DNA from: a virus
Taxonomy: Duplodnaviria > Caudoviricetes
Direction: 5' to 3' (one strand)
Virus record (IMG/VR): IMGVR_UViG_3300031227_000043
Span: 1-59,422 of that record
DNA: 59,422 nucleotides
Below the pieces are notes generated by a model. It saw nothing but the letters and a program-made list of their open reading frames with translations, had not been told where the DNA came from and ran no database searches. The position numbers and the translations under genes are program-made. This document shows, one piece after another, positions 8,184 to 59,421 of this stretch. Numbering within the stretch: the stretch's first letter is position 1; every line of letters starts with the position of its first letter.

Positions 8184-8207
8184 GCAGCAGGAATAGGAAG
8201 GAGGTAA

Positions 8208-8720: not shown

Positions 8721-8887
8721 ACGTAGGCAAGATCATTGAGTATGAGGGTGGCGAGATGGATGACGCTGAAGCAGTGGCCATGTTCCAGGAGATGATCAAT
8801 GACGGTACAGTGTGGCAGCTGCAGGGGAGTTATGGCCGGACAGCTCAGGCATTGATTGCTGGTGGGATATGTAAGGAGGCGACATAA
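8708..8887 (+). CDS. Small early protein (59 aa)
   Basis: Manual translation MAGIDVGKIIEYEGGEM...FQEMINDGTVWQLQGSYGRTAQALIAGG; RBS GAGGAGG. Confidence 0.75.
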   Translation: MAGIDVGKIIEYEGGEMDDAEAVAMFQEMINDGTVWQLQGSYGRTAQALIAGGICKEAT

Positions 8888-8888
8888 C

Positions 8889-38229: not shown

Positions 38230-38686
38230 TCTCTTTCTCCACCACGATATCTTCAGCCGCCTTGTATCCATTCTTCCGTAGCCATTCAGCCCCACCTAAA
38301 TGGCCGGTATCAACAATATCACCAACCCCTATCGGCTTAATCTCACACTTAATCCGCTTAGGGTCAGCTATGTATGCAATCGTATAGTCAACGCCAGCCT
38401 TGGACCATACAGGCCCCTTGCGGTCAATAACTTGGCTGTATTTGCCGGTCATGGTTCCCTTGACAGAGGCTTGAATAGAAGTAAAATTATCCTTGTAGGC
38501 ATTATATACAGCTTCTATAAGAACTTCCTCCTCAGTCATTTTGCGGTCAGTCACCACCGCCGTCTTAGCATCAACCACCTTGAGGTCGATTACCGGCTTG
38601 GCTGGAACCTCGGGCCAGATCAAAAGCGTTCCAGGAAAGGCAGGGGTTGACCATAATAGGATTGCCAGTATAATTAAATATCTCAT
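38213..38686 (-). CDS. Secreted-type protein (signal peptide)
   Basis: MRYLIILAILLWSTPAFP. Confidence 0.65.
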   Translation of the reverse strand: MRYLIILAILLWSTPAFPGTLLIWPEVPAKPVIDLKVVDAKTAVVTDRKMTEEEVLIEAVYNAYKDNFTSIQASVKGTMTGKYSQVIDRKGPVWSKAGVDYTIAYIADPKRIKCEIKPIGVGDIVDTGHLGGAEWLRKNGYKAAEDIVVEKENVLVK

Positions 38687-41645: not shown

Positions 41646-44600
41646 TTATTGGTTATTGTCATTGCTGCTGCTGCCTTGCTGCTGTACTAGCCTCTTTAGA
41701 TCACGTAATGTACGAGTAGGGAATGATAGCTGGGACGTCTGAGTAGGTGCAGTGTTGGCTGCAGGTTTAACTGTTGCCTTAGCTGACCCTGCTCCACTCT
41801 TATCCTTAATACCCTTCACCTTGGTCATATACCGCTTGTTAAAGTCAGTCATGTACTTGTCCATGCGGATCTTAACCTTTTCTATTTGCACATTACGCTC
41901 ACTGGTTGATAAACGCTTACTGCCTTCTATTTGCTTTACAGTAGACCGCTCGAATTTAAGCTGCTTCTGTATGTATTGGGCATATGGGACTAGAGCCAAC
42001 TGAGCCTGTTTGGACTTGTTGATTTGCTTAATCATATCAGAGTCATTGGCAGTGGTCCAGTAGTCTCGTTGCTTTATGGCATACTTGATATCAGCTAAGT
42101 TGTCATGGTAAGCAGACCTAGTATAAAATTCAGACTTGCCACTATAGAGGCGACGTGCGAATGGTATCTCCTTGGCCTGAATGGGCTGTGAGGTGATGGC
42201 TTTGGCAGGCACACTAATGGTATTGGACATGAATTTGCCCAGGCCACCTGTTGCGGTGTCTACTAACATGTCTACTAACTCAGGCGATATATCTACTACG
42301 AAATCACCACGCGGGTCTATGCCAGCAGGATCGCCGCCTGTGAGCTCAAATAGCTTCTTGGTGACCCACTTGGACGGCTCCCGGCAACTGGACCAGTATA
42401 GCTGATAATTGGGCTTGGCCACATCAAATGGTGGCTGGTCAGGTCGCAGTGGGTTACCTGCAAAGTTCTTGTTTTCATTCCATTGGATAACTGGATCACT
42501 GATAGTAGGCGACAGGAATTGCCCTAATGAGACGTCGCCGCCTATCGGATTAAAGCTGGATATGGTAGAGCTTGCCATACGGCCTAGCATATGGCCCATG
42601 TCTAGAGGTTTACCGCGTGGGTCTATTGCTTCGCCTATGAGCTGGCCTAATGTGTGGAATACGTTAAAGCCCCACGGTAGCGGGATCTTGAAGTAGTCGC
42701 CGTCGCCCCATGGCCGCATCAGTACTAAGTTGTGATCCTTGACATAGTCCGGGATCTTGTCATAGCGGTCTTCACCATCGTCATCCTGGCCACCTAAGCT
42801 GCGATTGAGGGCGTCTAATGCAGCGGCTAATGCAATAGTGCCATAGACCATATTGCGAGTGGTGCTGCTGGTTGCAATGGACCTGATTACATTGACGTTG
42901 CCCTGCATGGAGGCGTTGTAAAACAGATACATGGCATTGGCATAGACGCCTAAGTCGCCTTTGCGAGTAAAGTTGACTGTGAGGTTCTTGGCTAACGATA
43001 TCGCCTTGGTCTTGCTCATGCCCAAGTCATTGACGGCGTGGTAGTAGGCTGAGAGCCGGACGCCATTTTCAACTATGGTATTGTAATCGGTTATCAAATC
43101 TAATGCGCCACGTATGATACGGCGGGCGCCACCTTTGACACCAGGCTTTAGTGTTCTGAGATGAGCTTTTAACTTTGCCTCGCGCTTCTCAATATTCTTG
43201 TGGTGGTCTATCCAGCCGGTGACGCCACCGAGTCGTTCATAGTCGGCAGCTGCCTGGCCCCAGGCATCGTCTGCTTTGACATTGCCCTTGAGCATGCGAC
43301 GGATGCCGCCCATGGCATGACCATTGAGTACGCTGCCCAAGACTGCGGCCTTAGTGTGTTTGAGTTTGGTAGCGCCTAATGTATAGCCAGCCATTTGAAA
43401 GTCCCGGAAGAAGTTGCTGATAATGAATTCAGGATTAAAGCTGGTATTGATCATAGCTAGATAACGATTAACAGTGGACATTATATTGACGAAGGCGCCT
43501 GTAGAGCGGCCACCTAAGTTCTTCATGGTATGGACTATGCGAGCAGCGTGGTAGTTGGCGTCGTTAAATGTTATGGTATGTTCCTCACCGTTAATGGGGA
43601 CCACTAAGACGTTGTCCGTGAACTTATAGAATATGTCACGGCCAAATACCACTTCACTCAATGCCTTGGGTAGCCCAGTGAATAAGCTGAGTTGGCGCCC
43701 ATCACCTTTGCGCTGCTTGAGCATAGGTTTGAGCTCCTCAGCGTCCACAGTCCATAATGAGGGTGCATTGACACTCTTGGCGAAATTATACAGCGCACGG
43801 CCTACCACAGCCTTCTCAGCGCGTATCAGGGTGGCTTCATGCTGTGCTATGATATTAGAGAATATGTTGGTAGCGCGTGAGCCTGCAGCACCAGTGAGGC
43901 GACGCTTAACGCCTTTGCTGGATAAGCTGAAGCCTTGACCAATGACAGGTAGTGATTTGCCTTTGCCTTCACGCTTGAGAGGTATGTAGTGGGCATAGGC
44001 ACTGCGCATTGCCTGGACTGCAGTGGCGTCCATGAGGCCTTCAGATTCTAATATGGTCAAGGTGGATTCTGTAATTGCATGGATGCGATTGGCAATATCA
44101 GGCATATATTGGTCACCCTTGAAATGATCTAATATATAGCCGGACTCCTCATTGGTCATGCCTGACAGTGCTTCGTTATGCTCAGTGCCAGGATTGATCT
44201 TGCGCAGTTGGGCGTTGGCTTCCGGCGCATGCAAGGCGTAGTTGTAGAGCTCGCAGTCTTCTAATGAGTGGCCGGACTTGGATATCAGCTGCTCCAGTGG
44301 TTCTACGTGGTCGTGAGTGAATAGGGTAATGCGTGCCGACGCCTTAGATGTATAGACCTCTTCAGCCTGGTATGCGTTATGGGCGTCATCTAATGGTGTG
44401 GCGGTCTCTAGCTCAACGCCTTGCTGAATACGCTTCAGTGAGTTAAGGCGGTCCTGCAGCTTGAACTGCATCAGGTCAAATACATAGCGGCCAGGGCCAT
44501 CAGTAGGCATATTGAAGCCTTCCGGTGATGCCGGGTTATGCACTTGGGCATAGGCTCTGGCAGCGTTGCGTGCCGAGTCTTCGTCAGTGGGTAGTGGTGC

Positions 44601-47600
44601 GCCAGGATTGATAGTGCGGTATTCAGCAAGTTTGCGCGATACCCAGTCGGCTTCTGGCTTGGTACGGGTAGCGAACATGGTTTGACCTTTATACAATACA
44701 GAGTCACGCATCTGTGAGGTGACTGCAACTGAATGCACAGGCTCCATTTTAGCACGGAAGTCTGTAATTGATATGCCTGATTCTATATCGGCTGTGGGCA
44801 CCTTGACATCCTCCACTTTGCTGCCCCACTGCTTAACATACTTGGCAGCGAACCCCATTAGCTTCTCGTCATAGAATGCCTTCATGCCGAAGCCACCTAT
44901 AGATAGGTCGTCGCCTGTTATGGTGCCATTAGTAGAGGAGCTGGCTATGATTTGCTGTGCCATCTTCTTGCCTATGATATCGACTAATGAGACTTCGCGG
45001 CCACCTATAGTAGTGGTGCCGATGAGTGGTATCATATGGTCGAATTGGGCCGTGCCTGATTTGCTGGCTACTATATGGACCATAGCCTCTGCTGCAGCAT
45101 GAGGTACAGCCATCCGCTGAGCAGCAATTAGCTGATCAAGCTCCGTGCGTTGGCCTGGAGTTAAGTCTTCCATGGGTAGCCTACGCAACTGCTGGTAGCG
45201 CTCGTAGCTATCGCGACCGGTTATAGCTTTGGGTATTGTCGGCGTTTGTTTACGCTTAGTCCAGGCTATCTCATCCACTTGCTGACGTAGTGCATCACTA
45301 TACCGTGCGATCTGCTGTATGCCAGTGGTCCAGCCTATACGGTCATAGCCGCCTTCAGCTGCCATACGCAGCATACGTTTGAATACGTACTCATGCCAGT
45401 TGTTGAGTAGCGGCGCAGGTGCTGCTGCATCGTTTAATGCCTTCCACTTGTCTCTGGCTGCCCCCTCTATATCTATTAGCCTATCATACTCTATACGCTC
45501 TTCTGACGTGAACGATGGCGAGCGCTCAACTGTGGAGCCCTTATTGTCATAGACTGCAGCTCTATATGCATTCGTATTAGCTATGGCCTTATCTAACACT
45601 TTACGGGCAGCAGCAGTAGCAACATCGTCCCGCATACCCTTCTCCTTAGCTTCCTGCAGCCAATCACTCTGTATCTCCTCTATGAACAATACCCTATCGC
45701 CGTTGTCTGCTATACGAGTATTGAATCTGACATGCGCTATAGGATCTATGCTGCCATAGTGCTGGTATGTAGGGCGCCATGTACCTTTGGACTCCATGTC
45801 ACCAGGCCATGTGAATAGCAGCTCGCGGTAGTCGGTGCCGCCAGAGCCGCTGCCTAATTGATAGGTGGGGTACTTATATGAAGGCACTTGTCCAGGTGGT
45901 AATGCAGCGGGCTCAGGCAGTATACCAGCACCTACAGCAGCCACATCGGGTTGGCCCTGCCCAAAGTCAAATGCTAATTGGTTCTCAGGCGTAGGCAAGT
46001 AGCCTTCTTGGCGATCCTCTGCTGCCTGTTCCTGTAGCTCCCGCTGCTCCTGTAGGTCATTGTAGTAGTCGTGGGCTGCCTCCACAGCAGCATCATAGCT
46101 GTCATAGTCGCCCTCAATGTCGCCAGGGCCATTCATATATACACCTGAATCATACCCCCTGGCAAATATGTTAAAGCCATGGTTAGAATCGTGGTATACT
46201 TCCTCGGCGTCTTCCCAGGCCCTCTCACTGGCCATATTCAAAGCACTGTCCATGGCACGGTCACGTAGATCCTGCATGTCATCTTCCGGTATACTGTCGC
46301 GGTCAGTTATGGTATCGGCGTCTTCTTCATCTACCTCGTTGGCTAAGTAGTCATCTACTAATTCGGTGAGCTCATCTTCAAAGTAGAACTCCTCTGCCTG
46401 TTCCTGTGTATATTCTGGATCAGGTTCAATAGTGGTGCCATTATCGAATTGAGGCGGCTCAAATTGGTCACCGGTTACATCCTCTGGATAGGCGCCACGG
46501 TCAGCAGTAGGTGGCTGCTCTATGATCACCAACTCCTGCGACTTAATATACTGCCTGAATGCTTCCCTATCGAATGTGCCCTGCTTGTCGGTGTTGGCTG
46601 CTAGCCATTCGGTAACGCCATACCATTTGAGCTCATCAGGCTTGACTCTGCCACGGCGCTCCAGCCATGTAGGTAGTGATTGAGCTTTGGCTGGCATGTC
46701 AGGTGCGGCAATAGATGTTAGTAGTGCTGAGTGCTGCCATGGTGCTATGGTGGGCGCAGTGGCCAGAGAGATGTTGCCTGTGGTAGGCGAGAAGGTGCCA
46801 CGGTTGAAGATGGACTTGATCTGGTTGGGATTGAGCGTAACCCATACATCGTGTTCCGCTTCTGTATAGACGTTTTCATCTGCGAAAGCCTGGTCTTTAG
46901 GTATGTATACCCCATCACGCCCTAATCGCTTGGCTTTTTCAATAAGCCTTTTTGGGCCTAGCTGAGTGTTCTCCCTATGAGTTGACACCATCGGATTTTT
47001 AATGCTCAAATACACTTGACTAACATTATCGCCGTATTCAACTGCCTCTTGATCACTTTCTATAAACCATGCGCCTCCACTTCGTTGGCCCATTATATAG
47101 TTATTTTCAGTGTCAGATCCATGATATACCACCAATGGCTTACCATCAGCACCTACCACCTTGCTATTGCCAAACCACTTCTTAAACGCCTTAGTATCAG
47201 TCATTGCCTTAGCAGCAGTAGCTAACTTAGCCCATGCTGACTTGGCATATTGCCGCTCAGGCCCTGACACCAATGACCCTGACATAATATCAGCATCACT
47301 AATTGGCGCTGGCTTATTCTGCTCACTGACATAATTCAGCAGACGTTGTTTAGCAGCTACTGTCATGGGCTTGCTATAGTATCCGGTAAACATCTTAGCG
47401 AAGTAGTCCTCTGGCCTGCTGAAACCCTTACCGCGCAACGCCTTACCCATGCGCTGCAGAAATGCTCTGATCTTCAGAAACATCTTGCGTATCCAGTTTG
47501 GATGCTGCGTAAACTTATTAGGCTTCTCCATGAATGTGACAAAAGCATCCATGGCTGATTCCTCATTGCCATTGAAGTGTTTGAGTAGGCTAGCCTTTTG

Positions 47601-50600
47601 TTTGGCAGTCATGCCTAAGTCTAATATCACATGGCCTGCTTCTTCCCAGGTAGCGCGTCTAATCTCACTGGCAGTGGCCTCATATGACAGCTCTACTAGG
47701 TAGCGTATCTGGGCCTCTATATTGCGCAAGTAGGGTGTGGTAGCGCCTAATATGCGGTCTAGTTGGCCACCATGCTCAGTATACGACTTACTGAAGTCTT
47801 TGCCCGACAGTGATATGTATTGTTTGAATTCCAGGTCTACGTGAGCCAATAGAGCATCAGACATTCCTGCCTCACGCATCCAGGATTTGATATTGCCTAC
47901 CAGTGTCTTGTTGCGGCCATACTGCTTAGGCGTAATGCGAGGCGCTACTCCCTCATATGCTAATGCGGGATCTTGTGAGGCAAACTTGGACATTCCCTCA
48001 TAGAGAGCTTTGGCTTTCATCTTTTGGGTTATGGGGAGCATCCAGACTTCGGTGGGAGTCGCTGACCCTGCATATTTTATTACATAGTCTACATTGCCAG
48101 ACTGTTCGGATAAGTACTGATCTGCCTCCACTTTCGTTGCAAAGTTTTCAACTATTTCATCAAGTTCTATATCATAAACACCATACGGAAAATCCTCTGG
48201 TTGCTCATAGTTTTGCGCTCCAATTTCAGTCGTTCCAACCTTCGCCTTGCCCCATGCAGGCTTATTGAAGAATTTATTTATAGCGGCAGGTAGGATCTTA
48301 TCATAAAACCCTTTCATACCTTCGCCACCTACTTTGAGGTCGAGGCCCTGTAACTTTCCACTGTCTTTGCCTGAATTAACTATCTTTTCAGCTACATCCT
48401 TGCCAATTAGTTCTTCAATACCATTTGAGTCAAGGCCTCTTCTCTCTATCTGGTCGCCTGTATGAGGATAGGCAAATATGGTATATTTTCCATCGGACTC
48501 TTTTTGGTATGTGACTTGGGATACTTGCTTACTCAGATCGTATCTATCAGCCTGCACCTCTCCGGGAGTCCATGCGATCTGATCAAACCCATTCTCTGCT
48601 GCATACCTCACCACTCTCTTGATTGTCAGTAGGGGCCATGTCTTTTTGAAGGGAGCATTGGGCACTGCTTGGACATTTAGGGGGGTAGATGTGGCAACTC
48701 CAGCCTCATTTCTCCCTATGACTCTATCTAACGTAAAGTTGTCTTGGTGCAGCCACATAGTTCCCAGGTTAAACTCTAATTTACCATCTTGGGACTCTCT
48801 GACCCCTTTAACTGATCCCCACCCTCGGATATCATCCCCAACAACAAGGTCACTATGGTTTTCTGGGATATTAGGCAGGTCGGGTCTATCCCCACGGTAC
48901 CCCTTCTTGCGCCCCGCCTGGTGCCAATCGCTCTGTATCTCCTCTATAAAAAGAATCCGCTCACCGTTCGGGCCTGTTCTGGTGTTGAATCGAATGTGGG
49001 CTAAGACGTTGGGCTCGTCCCAATGGGCGGAGGTGTAGGCCGTTTTTTCATAAGTCCTTAATCCTTGTGCCACATATTGCTTTTCCCAACTAAGGGGCTG
49101 CCCTGGCTTTACTGTATCGGGTCCAGAAAGGATGTAGTTTCCGCCAGGGTCTTTGATTGCGACTTGGCCTTCAACCGTTGGATGTGGGACTACTGTGTAG
49201 CCGCTCTTTCCCGGCAGAGTCAGCAATAACTCCTTGTAGTTCTCGCCTCCGGGAAGTTGGTAGCTGGCAAATTTGGTATGGATTGCGTCTTGGCCTTGAT
49301 CGAAATACACATCCGTGCCACTCAAAGACCGAATGGCATCCTCAAGCGACCCGTAGGAACGAATGTGGTACCCAAGATCCTCTTGACAATCAATCCCACC
49401 TTCTTCATTTGGGACCAGTTTCGCCCCACTGTCAAACTCGTACTCACCATTTTTCTCAATCTCATCGGTTACTTCTGCCACATATGAGTTGAAATCGGGG
49501 CCTTCCCCACCCTTCTCCACCTCCTCAATCTCAACATTATTTGCCCGGACAAAATCAAGGATCTCCTGTTTGGTGACTTTGCCCCTCTGCTCTTTCAGCC
49601 ACCCCTCAAGGCCCACCCACTCTACTTCCTCCTGCTTTACATGTAGATTATTGATCATTCCCATCCATTGATTAGCAGGAGCCTTTTCTTGCTTCAGGCT
49701 TTTTATGCCTCTTTCTAACATGGACATGAATGGTTTGGCAGTGGGCGTGGTTCTGACCTTGACAGCTGCTGCAGCCTTGGTAGGCCCACTGATAGCAACT
49801 GCTGACTGAGCCTTATCATATATCTTAATGAGTTGGGCCTTATCCTTACGGTAGACTCTTGACGGTATAACAGGCTGCGGATGATAGCCGTATTCTAACC
49901 AGGAATCACCACTTGTAAAAATGTCCCTGGCCGTTACTGTTTTACTTACTATCTTATATTCACCCTTTAATGTTCCTTCCCCGTGCTCTTTTGCATAAGG
50001 TCTTACAGTTGTGACCCAGTCCCCTGGTAGTATTTTTTGTGGATCACCTTTTTCAACTGCTCTATATATCCTGACAGCTTTATTAGGCAGACCCTCAGAG
50101 TCGCTAATAATGCTGTAGGCTTTTCTATCTAAAGCATCTTCGCCAGTGCCATAGTATCTTAACCCCTCAAGAGAATAAACATCTTCTGGATATGTACCAT
50201 TTTCCATAAGGTCGTATAAAGGTGAGCCTGATTCTGGGTCAGAAGGAGAATGAACGCTATCACCTCTATCAAAGCTGCTGTCAACTTGTTTATATCCGAC
50301 TTCCTTTTTCCATTGTTTGATTGCACTACGCTTCTCCTCACGAGTCTTTATGGGGACACTGTCTACAAATTCCTGTGTTGTATTATACTTCTTGGCCTTG
50401 GCAGTGAGGCCCAGATCAGAGGTTTCTACGAGGAGATAAGATCCTGGAGAGGTTTTGGCAGTTGGCGTAGTTCTGATCTTATCTCCTGTAGCCAACTTAG
50501 TAGGGCCAGCAAAGAATCTAAACTCAGGGTGTTCCTCTAAAGCCTTATCGTAAAAATCATGAACACTTTTTAATCCAAAGTCAGACCATATTTTGTTGAC

Positions 50601-53576
50601 GCCCACCCCTGTTTTATCCATTGCTTTTCGGTGGGCACTGTAAAGTGGATTGTTTTGGTTAAATCTTGCATCAACAAATTCATCTTTTGAAAGGTTATGT
50701 CTCTTGATAAAGCCAACAAGTGGAGTTAGCTGTTTTGGTAGCCTACCCTGCTCCAAGGCTTGTTTTGATTCAATCTCGGTGGCAAGAATACCATCAAGAG
50801 TCTTTGATAGCTTATTAAAATCACCCTCACCAGAAGCAACAGTTCTACCATCAGATCGTGTTAAATCAAAAACAATAGTCTTTCCTGTGGATAACTCCTC
50901 AACCAAAGCAAGTTGCTTTTTTGTAGGTCTGCCTTGGCTTATCGGGATGTCAACATTGAGCTCATTCGTAGCGTTGATAACTCGGATGTTCCCGGTTTTA
51001 TCCATGAAGTTTCTCATGGCTTCAGTTCCACTACCTGCAAAATCGCCACTCAAAGCATGGGATGCTATTTCTCTGTGGTCAATGTTTCGCCCCTGGCTCG
51101 CAGATCCTAAGCTAATGCCACTACTATCAATTCCAATTCCTCCTCTTGTAATGTAGCCTATGCTTTCGGGTGCAGTTGTTTTGCCGTATTTTCTGATAGC
51201 CTTGGCATTCAGGGCTTTGGTGGTAGTCGGGGTCTTCTTGCCTGTAGTAGCTAACTTAGTGGGTCCAGTAATGCCCTTTACTGCTTTGGGTGCCTCAACC
51301 GGTGTAAGGCTCTCATGGGCACGCTCAGCAATTAATGTACCACTCTCGCCACCAGACTTATATAAGTAAAGAGGCCTGTCATTGCGCTTGTCCCATGAGC
51401 GAGCTACTATGGTGTATATCCGATTGGTCTGTTTGGAGTGGACTTTGCTGCCGACATCAAATTTCCAGTTGGTATACTCAGCAGCTTTGGCCTGCATACT
51501 GGCAACACCTGCAGCTACTTCATCGTGCATCTTCTTAGAAAACTTGCCCAGGCGCTTATCCTCCATGGAGATGGCTAACTTAGTGGGACCAGTAATTGCT
51601 GCGGGTGCCGACACGTCTGCCTTGGGATCAATGACAAATACAGAATTAGGCTCATTGCCACCCTCATCTATCCAGATTGCATTATAGCCTTGAGCCTCGG
51701 CAGCTGCTATGGCACCATCAATCTCTTCAGGCTTTGTTGCCTTGGGCAGTATATCTGACCTGTATATGGCACCAGTTGGGACATCTACCTCCTTTATCTC
51801 CTTATCCTGGCCAGACTGTGTAAACTGCCTAGCCCACTCCTTATCAGGAGAGTAGTAGTTGTCGCCTTCATTGTATTGGCTGACTCCTCTATAGAGTGTG
51901 GTCGTGGTAGCAGCAACAGTGGGAGATGCAGCACCCTGAGAGCCAGGAGGTCTATCAGGTTTAACCCTCGGTTTTGGCTTACCCTCGACCGGGAGAGGTT
52001 CGCCAGTGGGTGCTGCACCTTCCACTGCTGCTGCTGCATCGGCTACTGCTGCTGTAGGCATATCTAACTCAGGCACTAGCTCCTGTGTACTAGTAGCCGA
52101 TTGGTTAACCTCATATCCTGCAGCCTCTAATGTCTCACGCAGAAACTGACTGCGAAACGCTATCTGGAGTGAGCTATCTATGTCGTCTGCTGCATAGGCT
52201 CTAACACCTGCAGTTAATGAGTCAGACAGTTGAGACCTGACTTCTATAAGCTGATCAGGCGTGGCTGCTTTGCCATAGGCCATGGCGTCTTCTGTGGATT
52301 CAAAGTCAAGGCGGCCATCGAGGCCAACTGTGGCTAATTGCGTAGGGCCTTGGATAGTACCACCATCACCTATACCTTCTTGCTGCATCACACCCTGTAC
52401 CTTGACCATGCGCTTAGCTATGATCTTGTCCAGCTGCGGCAATATCCCAGTGGTATCTGTACTCAGCTTGGTCCTCAGCTCTTGTACCTGGCCCAGCGTA
52501 ACCTTGCCACTATCCAGATCATCCCTGATACCATTCAGATACTTAGTCCGGGTGCCACCCTGCACAGCCACACCGGCAGTATGGAACATCACGCCCATGC
52601 CTGCGCCCAGACTAGCAGCTTTCCAATACTTAGCCTTGAGGTCAGCATAGTCAATGGCAGCATGCCACTCGGCAAATGTCTGCTCACTGGGTTTGGCCGC
52701 CCATGATGCTGTCAACTCCGCAATTACTTCCTGCAGCCCTTCTGTGGCACCCTCACTAAGCCCAGCAGCCATACCACCTAAGAAGAAGCCAGTGAGCTTA
52801 CTAGCTATCTTCTTGGCTATTGGTCCCCGCATCATCTCTATACCGACCATATCAAAGAAGCTATTGACTGCGCCGCCTGCCATGGCTGCTAATTGTGCAT
52901 GCTCAGGATCTGCACCCTTCTGAATAGCCAAGTCATATATCTCATCCTTGTTCATTTTATAGAAGTAGGAGGTGGCCAGTGCTAATCCCACCTGCGGCAC
53001 ATATCGTAAGGCAAAACCAGAAGCAGTGGGACCAATACTGGACAATAGCTGTGTAAAGTAGCTTTCGGTGTTGGCCTGTACACCACGCGAGAACTCCTGC
53101 ACTGCGGGGTCATCGTCGTAGGCTTTGCTGGCCCAGTTCTTAATGGCTATTTCGGCATTGCGGAATGGATTGCCATAGTCAGTGTATTTGTCCATGGCAG
53201 CACCGGCTGCACCAATTACAGAGGCGTCAAAGCCACGCTCAGCTGGGAGGCCTACCATGCCACCTGCTCCATGTAGAGTCTGCTGTATGGCAGTTTTGGC
53301 GGCACCCTGCCAGTTGTATGTAGTGGGCTGATCAGGTTCAGGTGTAGGTGATGCTGTAGGTGTCTGCTGCATGATCCCTGTATCCTGTTCAGCTCTCTCC
53401 AGGTCTGCTAACAAGTCGCCAGTCGGGCTCCCTGTACCGGGCACTGCGCCTGCTCCATCTGCTGCGTCACCTATATCAGACGTGCCAGCGCCAGGTCCAG
53501 GTCCGGGATGTCCCGGCTGACCAGGCTCTATGCCTAATGCTTGCTCTGACTCCAGTATCTGCTCAAGTAATCCCAT
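41646..53576 (-). CDS. Giant polyvalent ejection-type protein (3976 aa): several ART-like modules, duplicated EEIQSDW domain, C-terminal LPD38-like region
   Basis: ART-PolyVal-like FKKWFG-x-SKVV...PLVVYHG...VYLSIKNP...PNQIKS; two HxRFNTR...FIEEIQSDW domains; C-terminal NP-x-F-x3-N-x2-RD, TVNF-x-RKG, KIPLPWG, NKNFAG-x-P. Confidence 0.85.
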   Translation of the reverse strand: MGLLEQILESEQALGIEPGQPGHPGPGPGAGTSDIGDAADGAGAVPGTGSPTGDLLADLERAEQDTGIMQQTPTASPTPEPDQPTTYNWQGAAKTAIQQTLHGAGGMVGLPAERGFDASVIGAAGAAMDKYTDYGNPFRNAEIAIKNWASKAYDDDPAVQEFSRGVQANTESYFTQLLSSIGPTASGFALRYVPQVGLALATSYFYKMNKDEIYDLAIQKGADPEHAQLAAMAGGAVNSFFDMVGIEMMRGPIAKKIASKLTGFFLGGMAAGLSEGATEGLQEVIAELTASWAAKPSEQTFAEWHAAIDYADLKAKYWKAASLGAGMGVMFHTAGVAVQGGTRTKYLNGIRDDLDSGKVTLGQVQELRTKLSTDTTGILPQLDKIIAKRMVKVQGVMQQEGIGDGGTIQGPTQLATVGLDGRLDFESTEDAMAYGKAATPDQLIEVRSQLSDSLTAGVRAYAADDIDSSLQIAFRSQFLRETLEAAGYEVNQSATSTQELVPELDMPTAAVADAAAAVEGAAPTGEPLPVEGKPKPRVKPDRPPGSQGAASPTVAATTTTLYRGVSQYNEGDNYYSPDKEWARQFTQSGQDKEIKEVDVPTGAIYRSDILPKATKPEEIDGAIAAAEAQGYNAIWIDEGGNEPNSVFVIDPKADVSAPAAITGPTKLAISMEDKRLGKFSKKMHDEVAAGVASMQAKAAEYTNWKFDVGSKVHSKQTNRIYTIVARSWDKRNDRPLYLYKSGGESGTLIAERAHESLTPVEAPKAVKGITGPTKLATTGKKTPTTTKALNAKAIRKYGKTTAPESIGYITRGGIGIDSSGISLGSASQGRNIDHREIASHALSGDFAGSGTEAMRNFMDKTGNIRVINATNELNVDIPISQGRPTKKQLALVEELSTGKTIVFDLTRSDGRTVASGEGDFNKLSKTLDGILATEIESKQALEQGRLPKQLTPLVGFIKRHNLSKDEFVDARFNQNNPLYSAHRKAMDKTGVGVNKIWSDFGLKSVHDFYDKALEEHPEFRFFAGPTKLATGDKIRTTPTAKTSPGSYLLVETSDLGLTAKAKKYNTTQEFVDSVPIKTREEKRSAIKQWKKEVGYKQVDSSFDRGDSVHSPSDPESGSPLYDLMENGTYPEDVYSLEGLRYYGTGEDALDRKAYSIISDSEGLPNKAVRIYRAVEKGDPQKILPGDWVTTVRPYAKEHGEGTLKGEYKIVSKTVTARDIFTSGDSWLEYGYHPQPVIPSRVYRKDKAQLIKIYDKAQSAVAISGPTKAAAAVKVRTTPTAKPFMSMLERGIKSLKQEKAPANQWMGMINNLHVKQEEVEWVGLEGWLKEQRGKVTKQEILDFVRANNVEIEEVEKGGEGPDFNSYVAEVTDEIEKNGEYEFDSGAKLVPNEEGGIDCQEDLGYHIRSYGSLEDAIRSLSGTDVYFDQGQDAIHTKFASYQLPGGENYKELLLTLPGKSGYTVVPHPTVEGQVAIKDPGGNYILSGPDTVKPGQPLSWEKQYVAQGLRTYEKTAYTSAHWDEPNVLAHIRFNTRTGPNGERILFIEEIQSDWHQAGRKKGYRGDRPDLPNIPENHSDLVVGDDIRGWGSVKGVRESQDGKLEFNLGTMWLHQDNFTLDRVIGRNEAGVATSTPLNVQAVPNAPFKKTWPLLTIKRVVRYAAENGFDQIAWTPGEVQADRYDLSKQVSQVTYQKESDGKYTIFAYPHTGDQIERRGLDSNGIEELIGKDVAEKIVNSGKDSGKLQGLDLKVGGEGMKGFYDKILPAAINKFFNKPAWGKAKVGTTEIGAQNYEQPEDFPYGVYDIELDEIVENFATKVEADQYLSEQSGNVDYVIKYAGSATPTEVWMLPITQKMKAKALYEGMSKFASQDPALAYEGVAPRITPKQYGRNKTLVGNIKSWMREAGMSDALLAHVDLEFKQYISLSGKDFSKSYTEHGGQLDRILGATTPYLRNIEAQIRYLVELSYEATASEIRRATWEEAGHVILDLGMTAKQKASLLKHFNGNEESAMDAFVTFMEKPNKFTQHPNWIRKMFLKIRAFLQRMGKALRGKGFSRPEDYFAKMFTGYYSKPMTVAAKQRLLNYVSEQNKPAPISDADIMSGSLVSGPERQYAKSAWAKLATAAKAMTDTKAFKKWFGNSKVVGADGKPLVVYHGSDTENNYIMGQRSGGAWFIESDQEAVEYGDNVSQVYLSIKNPMVSTHRENTQLGPKRLIEKAKRLGRDGVYIPKDQAFADENVYTEAEHDVWVTLNPNQIKSIFNRGTFSPTTGNISLATAPTIAPWQHSALLTSIAAPDMPAKAQSLPTWLERRGRVKPDELKWYGVTEWLAANTDKQGTFDREAFRQYIKSQELVIIEQPPTADRGAYPEDVTGDQFEPPQFDNGTTIEPDPEYTQEQAEEFYFEDELTELVDDYLANEVDEEDADTITDRDSIPEDDMQDLRDRAMDSALNMASERAWEDAEEVYHDSNHGFNIFARGYDSGVYMNGPGDIEGDYDSYDAAVEAAHDYYNDLQEQRELQEQAAEDRQEGYLPTPENQLAFDFGQGQPDVAAVGAGILPEPAALPPGQVPSYKYPTYQLGSGSGGTDYRELLFTWPGDMESKGTWRPTYQHYGSIDPIAHVRFNTRIADNGDRVLFIEEIQSDWLQEAKEKGMRDDVATAAARKVLDKAIANTNAYRAAVYDNKGSTVERSPSFTSEERIEYDRLIDIEGAARDKWKALNDAAAPAPLLNNWHEYVFKRMLRMAAEGGYDRIGWTTGIQQIARYSDALRQQVDEIAWTKRKQTPTIPKAITGRDSYERYQQLRRLPMEDLTPGQRTELDQLIAAQRMAVPHAAAEAMVHIVASKSGTAQFDHMIPLIGTTTIGGREVSLVDIIGKKMAQQIIASSSTNGTITGDDLSIGGFGMKAFYDEKLMGFAAKYVKQWGSKVEDVKVPTADIESGISITDFRAKMEPVHSVAVTSQMRDSVLYKGQTMFATRTKPEADWVSRKLAEYRTINPGAPLPTDEDSARNAARAYAQVHNPASPEGFNMPTDGPGRYVFDLMQFKLQDRLNSLKRIQQGVELETATPLDDAHNAYQAEEVYTSKASARITLFTHDHVEPLEQLISKSGHSLEDCELYNYALHAPEANAQLRKINPGTEHNEALSGMTNEESGYILDHFKGDQYMPDIANRIHAITESTLTILESEGLMDATAVQAMRSAYAHYIPLKREGKGKSLPVIGQGFSLSSKGVKRRLTGAAGSRATNIFSNIIAQHEATLIRAEKAVVGRALYNFAKSVNAPSLWTVDAEELKPMLKQRKGDGRQLSLFTGLPKALSEVVFGRDIFYKFTDNVLVVPINGEEHTITFNDANYHAARIVHTMKNLGGRSTGAFVNIMSTVNRYLAMINTSFNPEFIISNFFRDFQMAGYTLGATKLKHTKAAVLGSVLNGHAMGGIRRMLKGNVKADDAWGQAAADYERLGGVTGWIDHHKNIEKREAKLKAHLRTLKPGVKGGARRIIRGALDLITDYNTIVENGVRLSAYYHAVNDLGMSKTKAISLAKNLTVNFTRKGDLGVYANAMYLFYNASMQGNVNVIRSIATSSTTRNMVYGTIALAAALDALNRSLGGQDDDGEDRYDKIPDYVKDHNLVLMRPWGDGDYFKIPLPWGFNVFHTLGQLIGEAIDPRGKPLDMGHMLGRMASSTISSFNPIGGDVSLGQFLSPTISDPVIQWNENKNFAGNPLRPDQPPFDVAKPNYQLYWSSCREPSKWVTKKLFELTGGDPAGIDPRGDFVVDISPELVDMLVDTATGGLGKFMSNTISVPAKAITSQPIQAKEIPFARRLYSGKSEFYTRSAYHDNLADIKYAIKQRDYWTTANDSDMIKQINKSKQAQLALVPYAQYIQKQLKFERSTVKQIEGSKRLSTSERNVQIEKVKIRMDKYMTDFNKRYMTKVKGIKDKSGAGSAKATVKPAANTAPTQTSQLSFPTRTLRDLKRLVQQQGSSSNDNNQ
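49734..52349 (-). repeat. Interspersed GPT(K/Q)LA(T) linker repeats inside the giant gene
   Basis: Copies at 52329-52349, 51574-51596, 51250-51272, 50490-50510 and 49773-49796 (51574 and 51250 copies 22/23 identical); KxRTTPTAK 27-nt repeat at ~50454-50480 and 49734-49760. Confidence 0.9.
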
Positions 53577-56124: not shown

Positions 56125-56574
56125 TTATGCTGCTGCACTATCACTGTCATTATCATCTGCTGCTGTCTTAACTGCTACACTTGTAGCCTTTTCCCACTCC
56201 TTGTCAGGTGGCAGTGGGCTATACTCTGCCCATTCGCATTCTGGCTTAGGACATATCCATTGAGATTGCCAGCTGCCACCTACCATGCAGCTTGGGCAGC
56301 TATTTACGGTGTAGCAGTACATAGGCGTGTTGCAGTGTGGACACGGTTTAGCTAATTTGGCGTATGCTGCCTGTGCTGCTGCTATCTCCTGATCGTGTTG
56401 TCTGACCTGAAGATTGAGGCCAGTCATATACTCCAAGAACTCTTCCATGCCAGCGCCAATCTCACGACCATTATTCTTGAAATTGAGTATAAGATTACGA
56501 AATCCCTGAAGAACCTTGCCGGTTTCACCTGCCGTAAGTTGTTCCATTGTTTTAGGCATTATAGACATTCCCAC
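56125..56574 (-). CDS. Zn-binding hypothetical protein
   Basis: CPHC, CPSC and CPKPEC. Confidence 0.65.
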   Translation of the reverse strand: MGMSIMPKTMEQLTAGETGKVLQGFRNLILNFKNNGREIGAGMEEFLEYMTGLNLQVRQHDQEIAAAQAAYAKLAKPCPHCNTPMYCYTVNSCPSCMVGGSWQSQWICPKPECEWAEYSPLPPDKEWEKATSVAVKTAADDNDSDSAAA

Positions 56575-57965
56575 TCGAAATATTTAAGATCATTCATACA
56601 ACATCTACTAATGTAACAGTTCGATGAATTGGTCCACCATCTATAACAACCGAAAGTATGTTCACCGTCTATACAGTTATCTGTTCCATAAGGTCTGTCA
56701 TAGCATGGATCATCTGCGCACCATGTTGCCTGATATTCTTCACAATTATCAGGCTGACCAAGAAAGTAACTGGCACAATAAGTTTCTTGATATTGTTTCT
56801 TGCCTCCTACGATTAATTCATAATACGCATAAGGCGAACTATAGTTATAATTAGCAACGGAGCCGCTTAAACCGCATGTGCTACTCTTTTCTACCCAATC
56901 CCCATCAGTCGTATTTCTAATAGTTGCCGTAACTACTGTCCCGCATGCATCCGTTATCGTTATCGAGGCCACCGGCCCGAAATCTTCGGCACTACCTCAT
57001 GTGCCGTCCGCACAATCAAGTTGCTCATTTCGATTGCTGGATGTTACAGTATTTGTTCCGGTACTATGCCAAGTATATCCTGTTCCGCTGGCATCATACT
57101 TAAAATCTCCGCAGCCACCTAAGACATAGACATCTATTGAAGCATTCTTAACTATCGTATCCGGTGTATTAGGATCGTCAAAGGTAAACACGCCTTCTGG
57201 CGGCTCATCTTCTTCGCAACACGTCTTACAGCAGCCATAGTCACTAATATCTACACACTGCTTGCATACTCCACGGATATTATAGCACAGTGTAGTAGCG
57301 AGATAGCCATTCTCAGCTTCACATGCCTTATCAATATCCCAATTAAAACTTATCGTATGAGACAGATACTGCACAGAATATTGCAGAAACGGGTTAGTCT
57401 TTATCCCTGGTGGTGTTATCTTTATGTTTGTTATGAGCTCCGTTCCAACACCCTCAAAGCTCCAGAAGTGTGAACCGGCACTATATGGATATTTAGCCCA
57501 CGGAAACTTCGACCCGGATATGATCGCGTCTTCAGGGCCAAGCTCATCAAACTTATCCATTTGCGAACACGTCTGTTGCCGCATCTCAAAGCCACAAGGG
57601 TTTCTTTCTCCGGGCTCTGGCAAATCGCCTGGTACGCCTCTACCACCGAATTCGCCATCAGCATCGCTGACTCTTGATGTTGTAACGCCACGGAAAGGCG
57701 GAAATGGCCACCATGGAGTTGGAAACGTCGGAGGATACCAGTGCTCCATAGCAGGATAATCACTGCTTGAATACGGCTTCTTCATCTCACTGTGGCGCTC
57801 TTCGCTCTGATTGAACATGGCTTTGTCAGTGACCGCATGCATACGTTCAGTATAGCTCATCTCGTCAGCCGGGTTATCAGGATCTGACACAGCTACTTGG
57901 TATGGCTGCCTACCATACTCCTTGCGACTAGCTTTGTTGTGTATGTCTTCGGTTAGCCAGTTCAT
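56559..57965 (-). CDS. Cys-rich virion-region protein with one in-frame UGA (codon 323); Sec/readthrough candidate
   Basis: ORFs 56997-57965 and 56559-56972 share a frame, joined by TGA plus 8 sense codons: ...QLDCADGT*GSAEDFGPVASITITDACGT.... The downstream part has no RBS. Confidence 0.7.
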
Positions 57966-58189
57966 CTGCGTTTGCTATCCTTTGCATACTTTGGCTTATT
58001 AAATCTGTCGTGGTCAGGCTTAGGCCAGAAGCCAGCAGCATTGAGAGGCTGTGTGGTTAGTGGGTTGCCGTTGTCATCTAATATTGGCCCCACCTTATGA
58101 AACTGCCCCATCCATGAATTAGCCACCGGTCTACTACCACCACCACCTCTATTGCTACTGCCTCTGCCACCCTTTACCTGTTGGTCCAT
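57962..58189 (-). CDS. Small hypothetical protein
   Basis: Overlap-coupled at both ends. Confidence 0.6.
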   Translation of the reverse strand: MDQQVKGGRGSSNRGGGGSRPVANSWMGQFHKVGPILDDNGNPLTTQPLNAAGFWPKPDHDRFNKPKYAKDSKRR

Positions 58190-59421
58190 GCTGATATCGC
58201 TGCTCCTATGTCTTCCAAATACATTTCAATATCCTTAGTCGGTTGATCAATCTTGAGCGCTATATGCTGGCCGACTAATCCCAGCCGCCTACGATGTCTC
58301 CTTATAGTCTGGCTTGTGTTCTCAGCTATCATGCTCAGTGTCATTGTGCCCTGCGATACTGCATTCTCGTATAGCGTTACCGTGATGTCGCCTGCAGCCT
58401 GTGTCTTGCACCTAAGCAGCAGCACTTCCATATCTACATACTCGCCTCTGGCCGGAAACTCCATAGTAGCATAGCTGTCTATGGCAGTGGCGACATCAGC
58501 TGTACCGTAGTTAAGCTGGTATACTGTGCCGTCTGCTGTACCGCCACCTACCTGAATCACCGGCACATTACCACTTTGCGCGCCTACCTCAGTCATGCAG
58601 GACAGCGCTTGCCCCAGCTTATCAAAGCTCCAGGTCTTGCTCTGCAGGTCAAACACTGGAAATATGTTAGGCACTGTGGCGCTGCTACCACTCACTATGC
58701 CTAACCGCAGCACATTACGCTTACTATCATATGCTAGCCAGTGCTCAGCCTCATAGCCCAGACGCACACACTCAGACTCGCCAGGATCAAAGTAGTTCTG
58801 GATGTCGTCGCTGATTATACTCACTACGCGCCCATCACTGGCCCAGACGCCATATCTGCTAATGCCAAACACCAGCGTCTTGATCTGCTCATTGGTAGCT
58901 GTAGATGTCAATACGCCGTCAACCACCTCCATGCATTTGCTGTTCATGATACCTATGCGAGTAGACAATATTAGCTTACCAAACGTGGTAGGCGAATACC
59001 CTTCAAATAGCGTAATGCAGCCACCCTCCTTGCCCTTCTCTTCCTGTGCTACCACTACCTCATTATGAAATGCCCTCATAGCCTTTACTGCATTGGCGCG
59101 ACCATCGCCAGCTACCAATATGCCATACTGACTCCCATTAAGCACTAGTGGCCGCCCAGGTGCACTCACATATATATATTCACTATACTGGTCAAACGTG
59201 TACAGCATCATCTCTTTCCAGGCGCAGTTACAGTTGCTCTGGCCAGCTTCATCTATATCAAAGTAGGGCCTGACCTGGACTTGCACAACCATGTCGGCGG
59301 CTAGCTTAGCATCTAATATCAGCTCATAAGCATAGGCGTAGTATGAGCTAGTTTCAAACTGCCTAGGCTGCGCTGCTGACTGCCTCGGAAATGACATCCA
59401 ACCGGTGTTGCTGAGACCGTC
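58174..59421 (-). CDS. Tail tubular/nozzle (P22 gp10-like stabilisation) protein, partial
   Basis: Beta-propeller-like segments (GV-x-ASDG...ISDDIQ-x-YF...VFDL-x3-TWS); frame open to the right edge; upstream of ejection genes. Confidence 0.65.
   Translation of the reverse strand, partial: DGLSNTGWMSFPRQSAAQPRQFETSSYYAYAYELILDAKLAADMVVQVQVRPYFDIDEAGQSNCNCAWKEMMLYTFDQYSEYIYVSAPGRPLVLNGSQYGILVAGDGRANAVKAMRAFHNEVVVAQEEKGKEGGCITLFEGYSPTTFGKLILSTRIGIMNSKCMEVVDGVLTSTATNEQIKTLVFGISRYGVWASDGRVVSIISDDIQNYFDPGESECVRLGYEAEHWLAYDSKRNVLRLGIVSGSSATVPNIFPVFDLQSKTWSFDKLGQALSCMTEVGAQSGNVPVIQVGGGTADGTVYQLNYGTADVATAIDSYATMEFPARGEYVDMEVLLLRCKTQAAGDITVTLYENAVSQGTMTLSMIAENTSQTIRRHRRRLGLVGQHIALKIDQPTKDIEMYLEDIGAAISAWTNR

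What the first reader, a model, noticed from the sequence alone, without database searches (positions are those of the whole stretch)
56559..57965. Cys-rich virion gene with a single in-frame UGA and downstream hairpin: candidate phage selenoprotein or programmed readthrough
Seen: two ORF-track ORFs are in one frame, separated only by TGA (56997-56999) plus 8 sense codons. The downstream half has no SD and overlaps the next gene, as real genes here do. The UGA is followed by Gly in a protein with repeated Cys-Gly pairs (GGCG, DACG, STCG; D-C-A-D-G-T-*-G), suggesting a Cys position. The mRNA can fold as (U)GAGGU..CCGAA-GAU-UUCGG..GCCUC(G) over 56964-56999, with G first in the loop. Known: bacterial Sec insertion uses a hairpin immediately 3' of UGA, and Q-beta A1 is made by UGA readthrough. 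Inference: a Sec-containing or short/long isoform tail protein, possibly dependent on host SelB and selenium. Caveat: the loop is only ~12 nt from UGA, closer than in E. coli fdhF.
Basis: partly seen in the sequence, partly recalled or inferred. Interest (0 to 1): 0.85.

Follow-up and report, generated by a model that had tools for sequence, protein, structure and literature searches.

The report
Phage structural gene encoding selenocysteine
A phage gene for a cysteine-rich, probably virion-surface protein carries one in-frame UGA that is kept in many distant relatives, is replaced only by cysteine in others and is followed by a covarying hairpin, so it is most likely a phage-encoded selenoprotein made with the host's selenocysteine machinery.

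Summary
On the minus strand, 57965..56559 is one 468-codon frame broken only by TGA at 56997-56999. Contigs of four runs show no difference there.

The same position is TGA in 17 other distinct phage and metagenome loci. It is TGT or TGC in 13 distinct loci, and never TAA, TAG or another residue. Of 160 related proteins, 29 end exactly there.

TGA ends about 18 other ORFs in the window, so the code is not reassigned. In 7 of 16 loci the downstream part has no start codon within 49 codons. It evolves as coding sequence. It completes a confidently predicted beta-sandwich whose strands lie on both sides of the TGA.

A smaller one is (window 56966-56978): 5-6 bp, a 3-4 nt loop with G, and 17 or 23 nt between UGA and the loop. 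It shows compensatory changes and meets the structural criteria of the published bacterial SECIS model in 16 of 16 loci.

Best reading: a selenoprotein dependent on host SelABCD. The host, the selenium incorporation and the role of Sec are not shown. I found no phage selenoprotein in print.

The parts
56559..57965 (-). Whole gene: 468 sense positions (322 + Sec + 145) plus TAA stop at 56559-56561. A Shine-Dalgarno-like AAGGA lies upstream of the ATG at 57965-57963.
   Evidence: The frame continues through the TGA. Homologs with Cys at that place are single uninterrupted proteins (P0010, 454 aa; loci L008-L010).
56997..56999 (-). In-frame UGA (residue 323), the proposed selenocysteine codon, in the context C-A-D-G-T-U-G.
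   Evidence: Invariant T-G-A columns in alignment A3 of 16 loci. TGT/TGC in 13 distinct homologous loci and no TAA/TAG. No other letter in contigs of four runs.
56966..56978 (-). Conserved SECIS-like hairpin GGGCC-GGU-GGCCU over codons G-P-V-A-S. There are 23 nt between UGA and the loop (17 nt in most relatives).
   Evidence: RNAalifold finds this helix alone. Covariation score is 0.496 against 0.155 in shuffles, and 0 of 500 shuffles reach it. The middle pair is GC 6, CG 4, UA 4, AU 1, UG 1, never unpaired. Structural criteria i-iii of the bSECIS model are met in 16 of 16 loci. The window and L003 use a register shifted by one base.
56970..56972 (-). GTG (the Val codon in the hairpin loop) that makes ORF finders call a separate 137-aa ORF. 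Not a real start.
   Evidence: The same Val codon is GUU or GUC (not a start) in most relatives. Seven of 16 loci have no start codon within 49 codons after the TGA.
56880..57203 (-). Ig-like beta-sandwich domain (about residues 255-362) that contains the Sec. It starts with the motif FDDxNTPDTI and ends with ITITDxCGTVVTAxIRN.
   Evidence: AlphaFold2 on a 148-sequence alignment gives pLDDT 93-98 for residues 261-360, with strands 276-282, 288-293, 297-299, 306-309 and 313-318 before residue 323 and strands 332-338, 344-351 and 355-361 after it. Fold matches are generic Ig, cadherin, BIG2 and BACON-like domains.
56562..56879 (-). Cysteine-rich C-terminal domain ending in Y-x-W-x-C. It is reached only if the UGA is decoded.
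   Evidence: Homologous to the C-termini of the uninterrupted Cys forms. In the 17 codons from the ITITD motif (inside the Ig-like domain, just upstream of this part), variation lies mostly at third codon positions: entropy 8.5, 8.6 and 22.2. The model is partly low in confidence here.
57204..57965 (-). N-terminal region (residues 1-254) with the conserved motif KPY..DDY.EMEH and a Cys-rich linker (CKQCVDISDYGCCKTCC).
   Evidence: Alignments A1 and A4. pLDDT is mostly 40-80. No Pfam or PHROG family matched.
56964..56999 (-). Not supported as a conserved element.
   Evidence: Not in the MFE fold, z = -0.25. The inner stem is absent from relatives.

Best explanation
The gene 57965..56559 (minus strand) encodes one 468-residue, cysteine-rich phage protein. 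Residue 323 is selenocysteine, encoded by UGA.

Proposed mechanism:
1. During infection of a selenocysteine-competent bacterium, the small hairpin 18 nt after the UGA (12 nt in most relatives) is bound by the host's SelB.GTP.Sec-tRNA(Sec).
2. SelB delivers Sec to the ribosome in competition with release factor 2, as at bacterial SECIS elements.
3. The ribosome then completes the Ig-like beta-sandwich domain and the C-terminal Cys-rich domain.
4. Ribosomes that terminate instead release a 322-residue product with a half-built domain, which is probably useless.

The phage brings no Sec machinery of its own. Production of the full protein would therefore depend on host selA, selB, selC and selD and on selenium.

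What is shown: conservation of the UGA, exclusive exchange with Cys, the covarying hairpin at the right distance, in-frame coding selection downstream, and a fold that runs across the UGA.

What is inferred: that SelB reads the hairpin, that selenium is incorporated, and that the protein is on the virion. That Sec323 replaces a structural or redox cysteine (for example in a selenylsulfide link) is also inferred.
For: 1. The UGA is conserved and exchanges only with Cys.
- Of 39 fetched loci, 18 have TGA at the aligned place (17 distinct sequences, plus the window). Sixteen have TGT/TGC (13 distinct). Five lack the loop. None has TAA, TAG or another residue.
- Among 160 family proteins, 29 end exactly at this position (the window's own P0002 included) and 116 aligned domains have Cys.
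- The library search found 298 relatives at E <= 1e-3.

2. The code is not reassigned. TGA ends 19 of 74 crude ORFs in the window, and no other real gene runs on after it. It also ends 12 of 61 and 13 of 51 ORFs in two complete relatives.

3. These are not two genes. Seven of 16 loci have no ATG/GTG/TTG within 49 codons after the TGA. Third-position variation dominates downstream, with entropy 8.5, 8.6 and 22.2. One domain with pLDDT 93-98 has 5 strands before and 3 after residue 323.

4. The hairpin is real.
- RNAalifold predicts only this helix.
- 92.7% of cells pair, against 30-64% when the partner is slid by 1-3 columns.
- Four of 6 pairs show changes on both sides, and 0 of 500 shuffles reach the covariation score.
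- The pair formed by two synonymous third positions shows all four Watson-Crick types.
- A full 5-bp stem is present in 14 of 14 distinct Sec loci against 3 of 10 Cys loci (Fisher p = 3.5e-4, not corrected for phylogeny).
- The peptide over the hairpin is (A/P)-V-A in 14 of the 16 Sec loci of alignment A3 (A-A-A in L027, A-T-A in L031) but varies in Cys forms.

5. It fits the published bSECIS model (passages of PMC13188914). The loop is 3-4 nt, the stem 5-6 bp, there is a G in the first two loop positions, and the spacing is 17 or 23 nt, in 16 of 16 loci.

6. The TGA is reproduced in contigs of four runs.

7. The phage has no suppressor tRNA. No tRNA was found in the window or in two complete relatives. 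No tRNA-Sec was found in five related records.
Against: - The host is unknown, so the presence of selA, selB, selC and selD could not be checked. No relative was found in 185,579 species genomes, and cultured phages are at most 33% identical in TerL and PolA.
- There is no protein, selenium or RNA evidence.
- The hairpin is short. Taken alone it reaches the model's -7.5 kcal/mol in only 8 of 16 loci (-5.7 to -9.3). It is part of the unconstrained MFE fold in only about half of them.
- Four of its five core pairs are largely fixed by the peptide G/D-A-V-A-S, so most of the independent RNA signal rests on one or two pairs.
- Three of 10 Cys-form loci also have a 5-bp stem there (Ala-rich peptides).
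- The window and L003 need a shifted register (C:C mismatch in the common one).
- No Rfam family matches.
- The tree of the 100-residue core is poorly resolved. The number of independent Sec/Cys switches is therefore unknown: parsimony gives 5, but well-supported branches force only 1.
- Known bacterial selenoproteins are mostly redox enzymes. An Ig-like structural domain is an unusual home for Sec.
Confidence: 0.8

Rival explanations
1. Programmed UGA readthrough without selenium. A near-cognate tRNA (Trp, Cys or Arg) occasionally decodes a leaky UGA, giving a short 322-residue and a long 468-residue isoform in a set ratio, as for the Q-beta A1 protein. The hairpin would act as a stimulator.
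For: Only TGA, the leakiest stop (established knowledge), is used at this place. A structure follows the stop. The host's Sec machinery is unproven. No suppressor tRNA is needed for this reading.
Against: In homologs that read through, the residue is Cys in all 13 distinct loci and in 116 aligned domains. The other single-step neighbours of TGA (Trp, Arg, Gly, Ser, Leu) do not appear, apart from a few alignment shifts with Cys 1-3 residues away. The identity of the residue is therefore selected, which readthrough does not explain. The short form would end inside a beta-sandwich, with 5 of 8 strands, so two functional isoforms are unlikely. The hairpin's distance and G-containing small loop are those of SelB-type elements.
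Confidence: 0.1
2. A true stop. Either the 322-aa protein is the product and the downstream part is a separate gene, or the gene is a decaying pseudogene.
For: Gene callers split it. In the window a GTG lies 9 codons after the TGA. Twenty-nine database proteins end at this place.
Against: There is no conserved start: 7 of 16 loci have none within 49 codons, and elsewhere its place varies (codon 9, 12, 19, 33 or 45). The downstream part is under strong in-frame purifying selection. The frame and the TGA are kept in loci that differ widely at synonymous sites, from phages of 40-51% G+C. The domain is continuous across the stop. A pseudogene would not keep one stop at one place in 18 distinct loci.
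Confidence: 0.03
3. Genome-wide or late-gene reassignment of TGA in the host or phage (as in code 4 or code 25 hosts, or stop-codon-recoded phages).
For: Recoded phages exist (recalled, not from a call).
Against: This is the only in-frame TGA in a real gene of the 59-kb window. TGA ends about 18 other ORFs and is followed by early stops. The one other same-frame pair (7835-8890, minus strand) reads as a low-complexity antisense frame. TGA is an ordinary stop in two complete relatives. The homologs have Cys there, not Trp or Gly.
Confidence: 0.02

Closest known systems
Bacterial selenoprotein genes with an in-ORF SECIS (type case: E. coli fdhF; consensus bSECIS model of Zhang and Gladyshev as summarised in PMC13188914)
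   Same: An in-frame UGA with Cys-containing homologs. A stem-loop lies just 3' of the UGA inside the coding sequence. The loop is 3-4 nt with G in its first two positions (GGUC, GGUU, AGUU, GGCU, GACG, GGU), and 17 or 23 nt separate UGA from the loop. From recall, the fdhF loop is GGUC at +22 to +25, against +21 to +24 here in L004 and L006.
   Different: The gene sits in a phage genome, with no Sec genes or tRNA in the phage. The protein is an Ig-like, Cys-rich, probably structural protein and not a recognisable redox enzyme. The stem is only 5-6 bp, and no Rfam model matches.
Poxvirus glutathione peroxidases (molluscum contagiosum virus, fowlpox virus), the viral selenoproteins listed in the review PMC8310308
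   Same: A virus-encoded protein whose Sec is inserted by the host's machinery. In fowlpox the SECIS lies in the coding region (passages read).
   Different: Those are eukaryotic viruses with captured cellular GPx genes and eukaryotic-type SECIS elements. Here it is a bacteriophage, a bacterial-type hairpin, and a phage-specific protein family with no cellular homolog found.
Q-beta A1 readthrough protein
   Same: A phage structural gene with a UGA that must be read through to make the longer protein.
   Different: In Q-beta the inserted residue does not matter and both products are used (established knowledge). Here the position is Cys in every uninterrupted homolog, and the short product would be an incomplete domain.
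Ig-like (BIG2, BACON, cadherin-like) domains on phage virions, for example the N4 capsid decoration protein (PDB 9e99 chain K)
   Same: A beta-sandwich fold, with Foldseek matches at E about 1e-4 to 1e-3. Some family members carry tandem copies (L011, L012).
   Different: No sequence family match was found. The domain here carries three to four conserved Cys/Sec positions and is followed by a Cys-rich C-terminal domain. TM-scores for the whole chain are low (0.12-0.23).

Membership tests
Bacterial-type selenoprotein gene (Sec-UGA plus bSECIS) | In-frame UGA conserved among orthologs from independent genomes | tested here: met
   TGA at the aligned codon in 18 distinct loci including the window. 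The columns T-G-A are invariant in A3.
Bacterial-type selenoprotein gene (Sec-UGA plus bSECIS) | Homologs with Cys aligned to the UGA (Sec/Cys pair) | tested here: met
   TGT/TGC in 13 distinct loci. Cys in 116 aligned domains of 160 proteins. No other residue, apart from a few alignment shifts.
Bacterial-type selenoprotein gene (Sec-UGA plus bSECIS) | Stem-loop 3' of the UGA: loop 3-9 nt, upper stem 4-16 bp, G in the first two loop positions, 16-37 nt from UGA to loop (model quoted in PMC13188914) | tested here: met
   In 16 of 16 loci: loop 3-4 nt, stem 5-6 bp, G present, spacing 17 or 23 nt. Compensatory changes were found. The bSECISearch program itself was not available.
Bacterial-type selenoprotein gene (Sec-UGA plus bSECIS) | Free energy of the element at or below -7.5 kcal/mol | tested here: inconclusive
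   The hairpin alone gives -5.7 to -9.3 and reaches -7.5 in 8 of 16 loci. With flanks (41-63 nt, hairpin enforced) it gives -9.5 to -18.0 in 16 of 16. How the model delimits the element is not stated in the passages read.
Bacterial-type selenoprotein gene (Sec-UGA plus bSECIS) | Expressed in a cell with selA, selB, selC (tRNA-Sec) and selD | not testable with these tools
   The host is unknown. The phages carry no tRNA-Sec or any other tRNA.
Bacterial-type selenoprotein gene (Sec-UGA plus bSECIS) | Selenium shown in the protein | not testable with these tools
   Needs 75Se labelling or mass spectrometry.
Programmed stop-codon readthrough (Q-beta A1 type) | Identity of the inserted residue is unimportant, and both the short and the long product are functional | tested here: not met
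   Only Cys replaces the UGA. The short product would end after 5 of the 8 strands of one domain.
Stop-codon reassignment (TGA as sense throughout) | Many in-frame TGAs, and TGA not used as a stop | tested here: not met
   There is one in-frame TGA. TGA ends 19 of 74 crude ORFs in the window, and 12 of 61 and 13 of 51 in two complete relatives.
Phage virion (tail or decoration) protein | Homology to a known virion protein, or detection in particles | tested here: inconclusive
   No PHROG or Pfam family matched. Only generic Ig-like fold matches, including an N4 capsid protein. The gene lies in one minus-strand block with a 3976-aa polyvalent protein and a ConA-like lectin-domain protein. For the upstream neighbour there are only weak Atlas leads, to Phage_stabilise and the crAss muzzle protein.

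The most novel reading that the evidence does not exclude
This is the first family of bacteriophage-encoded selenoproteins, and the Sec sits in a structural, extracellular Ig-like domain of the particle and not in an enzyme. Sec323 would replace a universally conserved cysteine to form a selenylsulfide cross-link, or a reactive selenol, that works where disulfides are unstable (for example reducing, sulfidic brines). Assembly of infectious particles would then depend on the host's SelABCD system and on selenium supply. That would be a new kind of host-range and trace-element dependence for viruses. The Sec/Cys switches among relatives would track hosts with and without the Sec trait.
Probability: 0.4. 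Interest if true: 0.9.

Novelty: new variant of a known kind. Interest (0 to 1): 0.86.

Why it matters
In the passages of the one review I read on this point (PMC8310308), the viral selenoproteins named are two poxvirus glutathione peroxidases captured from animal hosts. A 2026 review of prokaryotic selenoproteomes and the BSepDB paper (111 families) do not contain the words phage, virus or viral.

A phage family that keeps a Sec codon and a SelB-type hairpin over deep divergence would show three things:
- Phages exploit the host's recoding machinery.
- Sec has uses outside redox enzymes.
- Gene callers systematically split such genes: 29 of 160 family proteins in the databases are truncated at this codon.

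It also gives a directly testable link between selenium availability, the host's Sec trait and phage infectivity. The hairpin is a compact natural SECIS of 13-16 nt that could be tested in reporters.

Tried and rejected
- Rfam: no family matched within 56800-57100 at E <= 10.
- Pfam and PHROGs: nothing on the protein, and nothing on five neighbours beyond one weak match (E = 0.0011) of the 149-aa downstream protein to PHROG 36904, of unknown function.
- tblastn against 50,697 phage records: no match.
- Single-protein scan of viral contigs: no match. The alignment-based scans worked.
- Genome-contig scan: 3 pattern matches, none a relative. So there is no prophage copy and no host clue.
- Host inference from PolA and TerL: best cultured-phage hits are 25-33% identical and spread over many bacterial hosts. 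Not informative.
- tRNA-Sec or a suppressor tRNA in the phages: none found.
- A second same-frame TGA-joined ORF pair (7835-8890, minus strand): the readthrough translation is a low-complexity, proline- and alanine-rich frame opposite plus-strand ORFs. I dropped it as an antisense artefact without a homology search.
- Tree of the 100-residue core (25 rows; duplicates, truncated loci and loop-less loci left out): no branch reached 95% support. It cannot say how often Sec and Cys were exchanged.
- Fold searches gave only generic Ig-like matches with low whole-chain TM-scores, so no specific function follows. The tools return no model coordinates, so I could not tell which cysteine lies next to residue 323.
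- RNA evidence: no RNA holder is listed among the 15 runs found.
- Supplementary files of papers were not consulted. Lists of selenoprotein families in the supplements of PMC13326102 or PMC13188914 could name a family I did not see.
Full report
**What is in the window.** The gene is on the minus strand. An ATG at 57965 opens a 322-codon ORF that ends in TGA at 56997-56999. The same frame stays open for 145 further codons to a TAA at 56559-56561. Eight codons after the TGA lies a GTG (56972-56970), which is why ORF finders report a second ORF of 137 aa. The readthrough translation has many cysteines, often followed by glycine, and the TGA stands in the context C-A-D-G-T-UGA-G.

The window is a phage. 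It encodes a portal, a large terminase, a family A DNA polymerase fused to a UDG-type domain, a helicase, a topoisomerase and a 3976-residue polyvalent protein. The record is a linear viral contig estimated 70% complete.

**The TGA is real.** Contigs assembled from four sequencing runs of four studies cover 56982-57028 without a single differing letter. Two of the runs may be the source of the record, and two are not marked so.

**TGA is an ordinary stop here.** In a crude non-overlapping ORF set, 19 of 74 ORFs end in TGA. After the other TGAs the frame closes quickly. The one exception is a pair at 7835-8890 on the minus strand. Its readthrough translation is a low-complexity frame opposite plus-strand ORFs, and I set it aside as an artefact. 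Two complete relatives with terminal repeats (61.7 kb at 51% G+C, and 45.6 kb at 40% G+C) also use TGA as a stop, in 12 of 61 and 13 of 51 ORFs. Genome-wide reassignment is therefore excluded.

**Relatives.** The protein matches no Pfam or PHROG family and no deposited phage genome. It belongs to a large uncharacterised family: 20 hits in the word-indexed search and 298 cluster representatives at E <= 1e-3 in the exhaustive search.

In the first alignment, nine homologs of 288-316 aa ended exactly at ...LDCA(D/A)GT, the residue before the TGA. P0010 (454 aa) ran on with Cys at that position and had the C-terminal domain.

I then fetched DNA: 14 loci from viral contigs and 25 from metagenome contigs. 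Reading each in frame gave the following.

| Codon at the aligned position | Loci | Distinct |
|---|---|---|
| TGA | 18 | 17 (L005 repeats L003), plus the window |
| TGT or TGC | 16 | 13 |
| Loop absent | 5 | 5 |
| TAA, TAG or any other residue | 0 | 0 |

After each TGA the frame continues into a conserved sequence (...DYGAVASITITDxCGTVVTAxIRN...).

Across the 160 family proteins in hand:
- 29 end exactly at this codon (the window's own piece included).
- 116 aligned domains have Cys there.
- The few G, A, P or L cases are mostly one- to three-residue alignment shifts next to a Cys.

The stop codon of the truncated database proteins is known only where I hold DNA.

**Not two genes.** In 7 of 16 loci with 150 nt downstream, no ATG, GTG or TTG occurs in frame within 49 codons of the TGA. 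Where one occurs, its place varies (codon 9, 12, 19, 33 or 45). The window's GTG is simply the valine codon, which is GUU or GUC elsewhere.

Over 17 ungapped codons downstream in 15 distinct TGA loci, summed column entropy is 8.5, 8.6 and 22.2 for codon positions 1, 2 and 3. This is the mark of a translated sequence under purifying selection in this frame.

An AlphaFold2 model built on 148 family sequences is moderate overall (mean pLDDT 70) but very confident for residues 261-360 (pLDDT 93-98). That stretch is one beta-sandwich with five strands before residue 323 and three after it. Termination at the UGA would leave an incomplete domain.

**The hairpin.** The region folds no better than shuffled sequence (z = -0.25), and its inner stem is missing in relatives.

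A smaller hairpin is conserved. In an alignment of 16 TGA loci (A3), RNAalifold predicts a single helix, columns 30-35 with 40-45. Pair counts are as follows:
- 92.7% of cells pair, against 30-64% when partners are slid by 1-3 columns.
- Four of six pairs show changes on both sides.
- No shuffle out of 500 reaches the covariation score (0.496 against 0.155).
- The central pair joins the third position of the first codon to the third position of the second alanine codon. It reads GC in 6 sequences, CG in 4, UA in 4, AU in 1 and UG in 1, and is never unpaired. Protein conservation cannot explain that.

The window and L003, which have proline for the first alanine, form the stem in a register shifted by one base (GGGCC-GGU-GGCCU, 56978-56966).

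A full 5-bp stem is present in 14 of 14 distinct TGA loci and in 3 of 10 Cys loci. Those three encode alanine-rich peptides that pair almost automatically (Fisher p = 3.5e-4, not corrected for shared ancestry). The peptide over the hairpin is nearly fixed in TGA forms and free in Cys forms, as expected if the RNA is constrained only when a UGA has to be recoded.

**Comparison with the bacterial SECIS model.** A 2026 review quotes the consensus model (passages of PMC13188914): an apical loop of 3-9 nt, an upper stem of 4-16 bp, a G in the first two loop positions, 16-37 nt between UGA and the loop, and MFE at or below -7.5 kcal/mol.
- All 16 loci meet the first three criteria. The loops are GGUC, GGUU, AGUU, GGCU, GACG or GGU, the stems are 5-6 bp, and the spacing is 17 or 23 nt.
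- The energy criterion is met by the hairpin alone in 8 of 16 loci.
- With flanking pairs it is met in all 16, but I do not know how the model delimits the element.
- No Rfam family matches.
- From recall, the E. coli fdhF element has the loop GGUC at +22 to +25. L004 and L006 have GGUC at +21 to +24.

**What supplies selenocysteine.** The window has no tRNA gene. Two complete relatives have none. Five related records have no tRNA-Sec. The machinery must therefore be the host's.

The host is unknown. No copy of the gene was found in 185,579 species genomes. The nearest cultured phages are only 25-33% identical in polymerase and terminase, and they infect many different bacteria. This is the main gap in the case.

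**What the protein is.** Fold searches return only generic Ig-like, cadherin-like, BIG2 and BACON domains, S-layer and adhesin repeats, and an N4 capsid protein, all with low whole-chain TM-scores. Some relatives carry tandem copies of the domain.

The gene lies in one minus-strand block that also holds the polyvalent protein and a ConA-like lectin-domain protein. Its upstream neighbour has only weak Atlas leads to virion proteins. A virion-surface role is therefore a reasonable inference but not a finding.

The cysteine that Sec replaces is the most constant one of the domain, while Cys285, Cys318 and Cys340 each drop out in some members. No coordinates were available to decide its partner. 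A selenylsulfide cross-link or a reactive selenol is my guess.

**Evolution.** TGA and Cys forms are interspersed on a tree of the 100-residue core. The tree is poorly supported (no branch at 95%). Parsimony needs 5 changes, but one origin is not ruled out. The TGA forms come from phages of 40-51% G+C and differ at most synonymous sites, so the codon has been held for a long time.

**Literature.**
- Three full-text searches found no report of a phage-encoded selenoprotein.
- In a 2021 review of viral recoding, the passages I read name only the two poxvirus glutathione peroxidases (PMC8310308).
- The 2026 selenoproteome review and the BSepDB paper contain no occurrence of phage, virus or viral.
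- The library lacks most subscription journals, and I could not read supplements, so absence from print is not proven.

**Verdict.** By the criteria used to define new prokaryotic selenoprotein families, this is a selenoprotein gene. Those criteria are a conserved in-frame TGA in at least two sequences, Cys homologs and a SECIS-like structure (passages of PMC1088965). It is carried by a phage. I put 0.8 on Sec insertion through host SelB, 0.1 on selenium-independent readthrough, and the rest on a true stop or reassignment. Selenium incorporation, the host and the role of the residue remain to be shown.

Noticed in passing
window 41646-53576 (-): A 3976-residue polyvalent protein with an ART-PolyVal (ADP-ribosyltransferase) domain at residues 2143-2258 and LPD38 at residues 3602-3806. 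It sits four genes downstream of the Sec gene in the same strand block and is probably an injected virion protein.
   Followed up: partly
window 17230-19992 (-): A family A DNA polymerase with a uracil-DNA-glycosylase-superfamily domain fused at its N-terminus (residues 34-165) and a 3'-5' exonuclease domain.
   Followed up: no
window 7835-8890 (-): Two ORFs in one frame joined by a TGA plus 16 codons, with no Shine-Dalgarno sequence before the second. The translation is low-complexity (PASYPALSPASCPATSPAN...) and lies opposite plus-strand ORFs, so it is probably an antisense artefact and not a second recoding site.
   Followed up: partly
L003 and L005 (whole loci): Identical 6.9-kb stretches from two different viral records. 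The same phage was recovered in two data sets.
   Followed up: no
L011:2100-3560, L012:3001-3660, L004:3001-3300: Some family members carry two or more tandem copies of the Ig-like domain. In L004 an upstream copy lacks the TGA while the last copy has it.
   Followed up: no
window 58174-59397 (-) and L003, L007 upstream of the match: The 407-aa gene upstream of the Sec gene is conserved next to it in distant relatives (motif VFPVFDL.DKVWSFD). It has no family, only weak Atlas leads to Phage_stabilise and the crAss muzzle protein.
   Followed up: partly
window 38683-40227 (-): A 514-aa protein with a C-terminal Laminin_G_3 (ConA-like lectin) domain. It is a candidate receptor-binding protein of this phage.
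   Followed up: no
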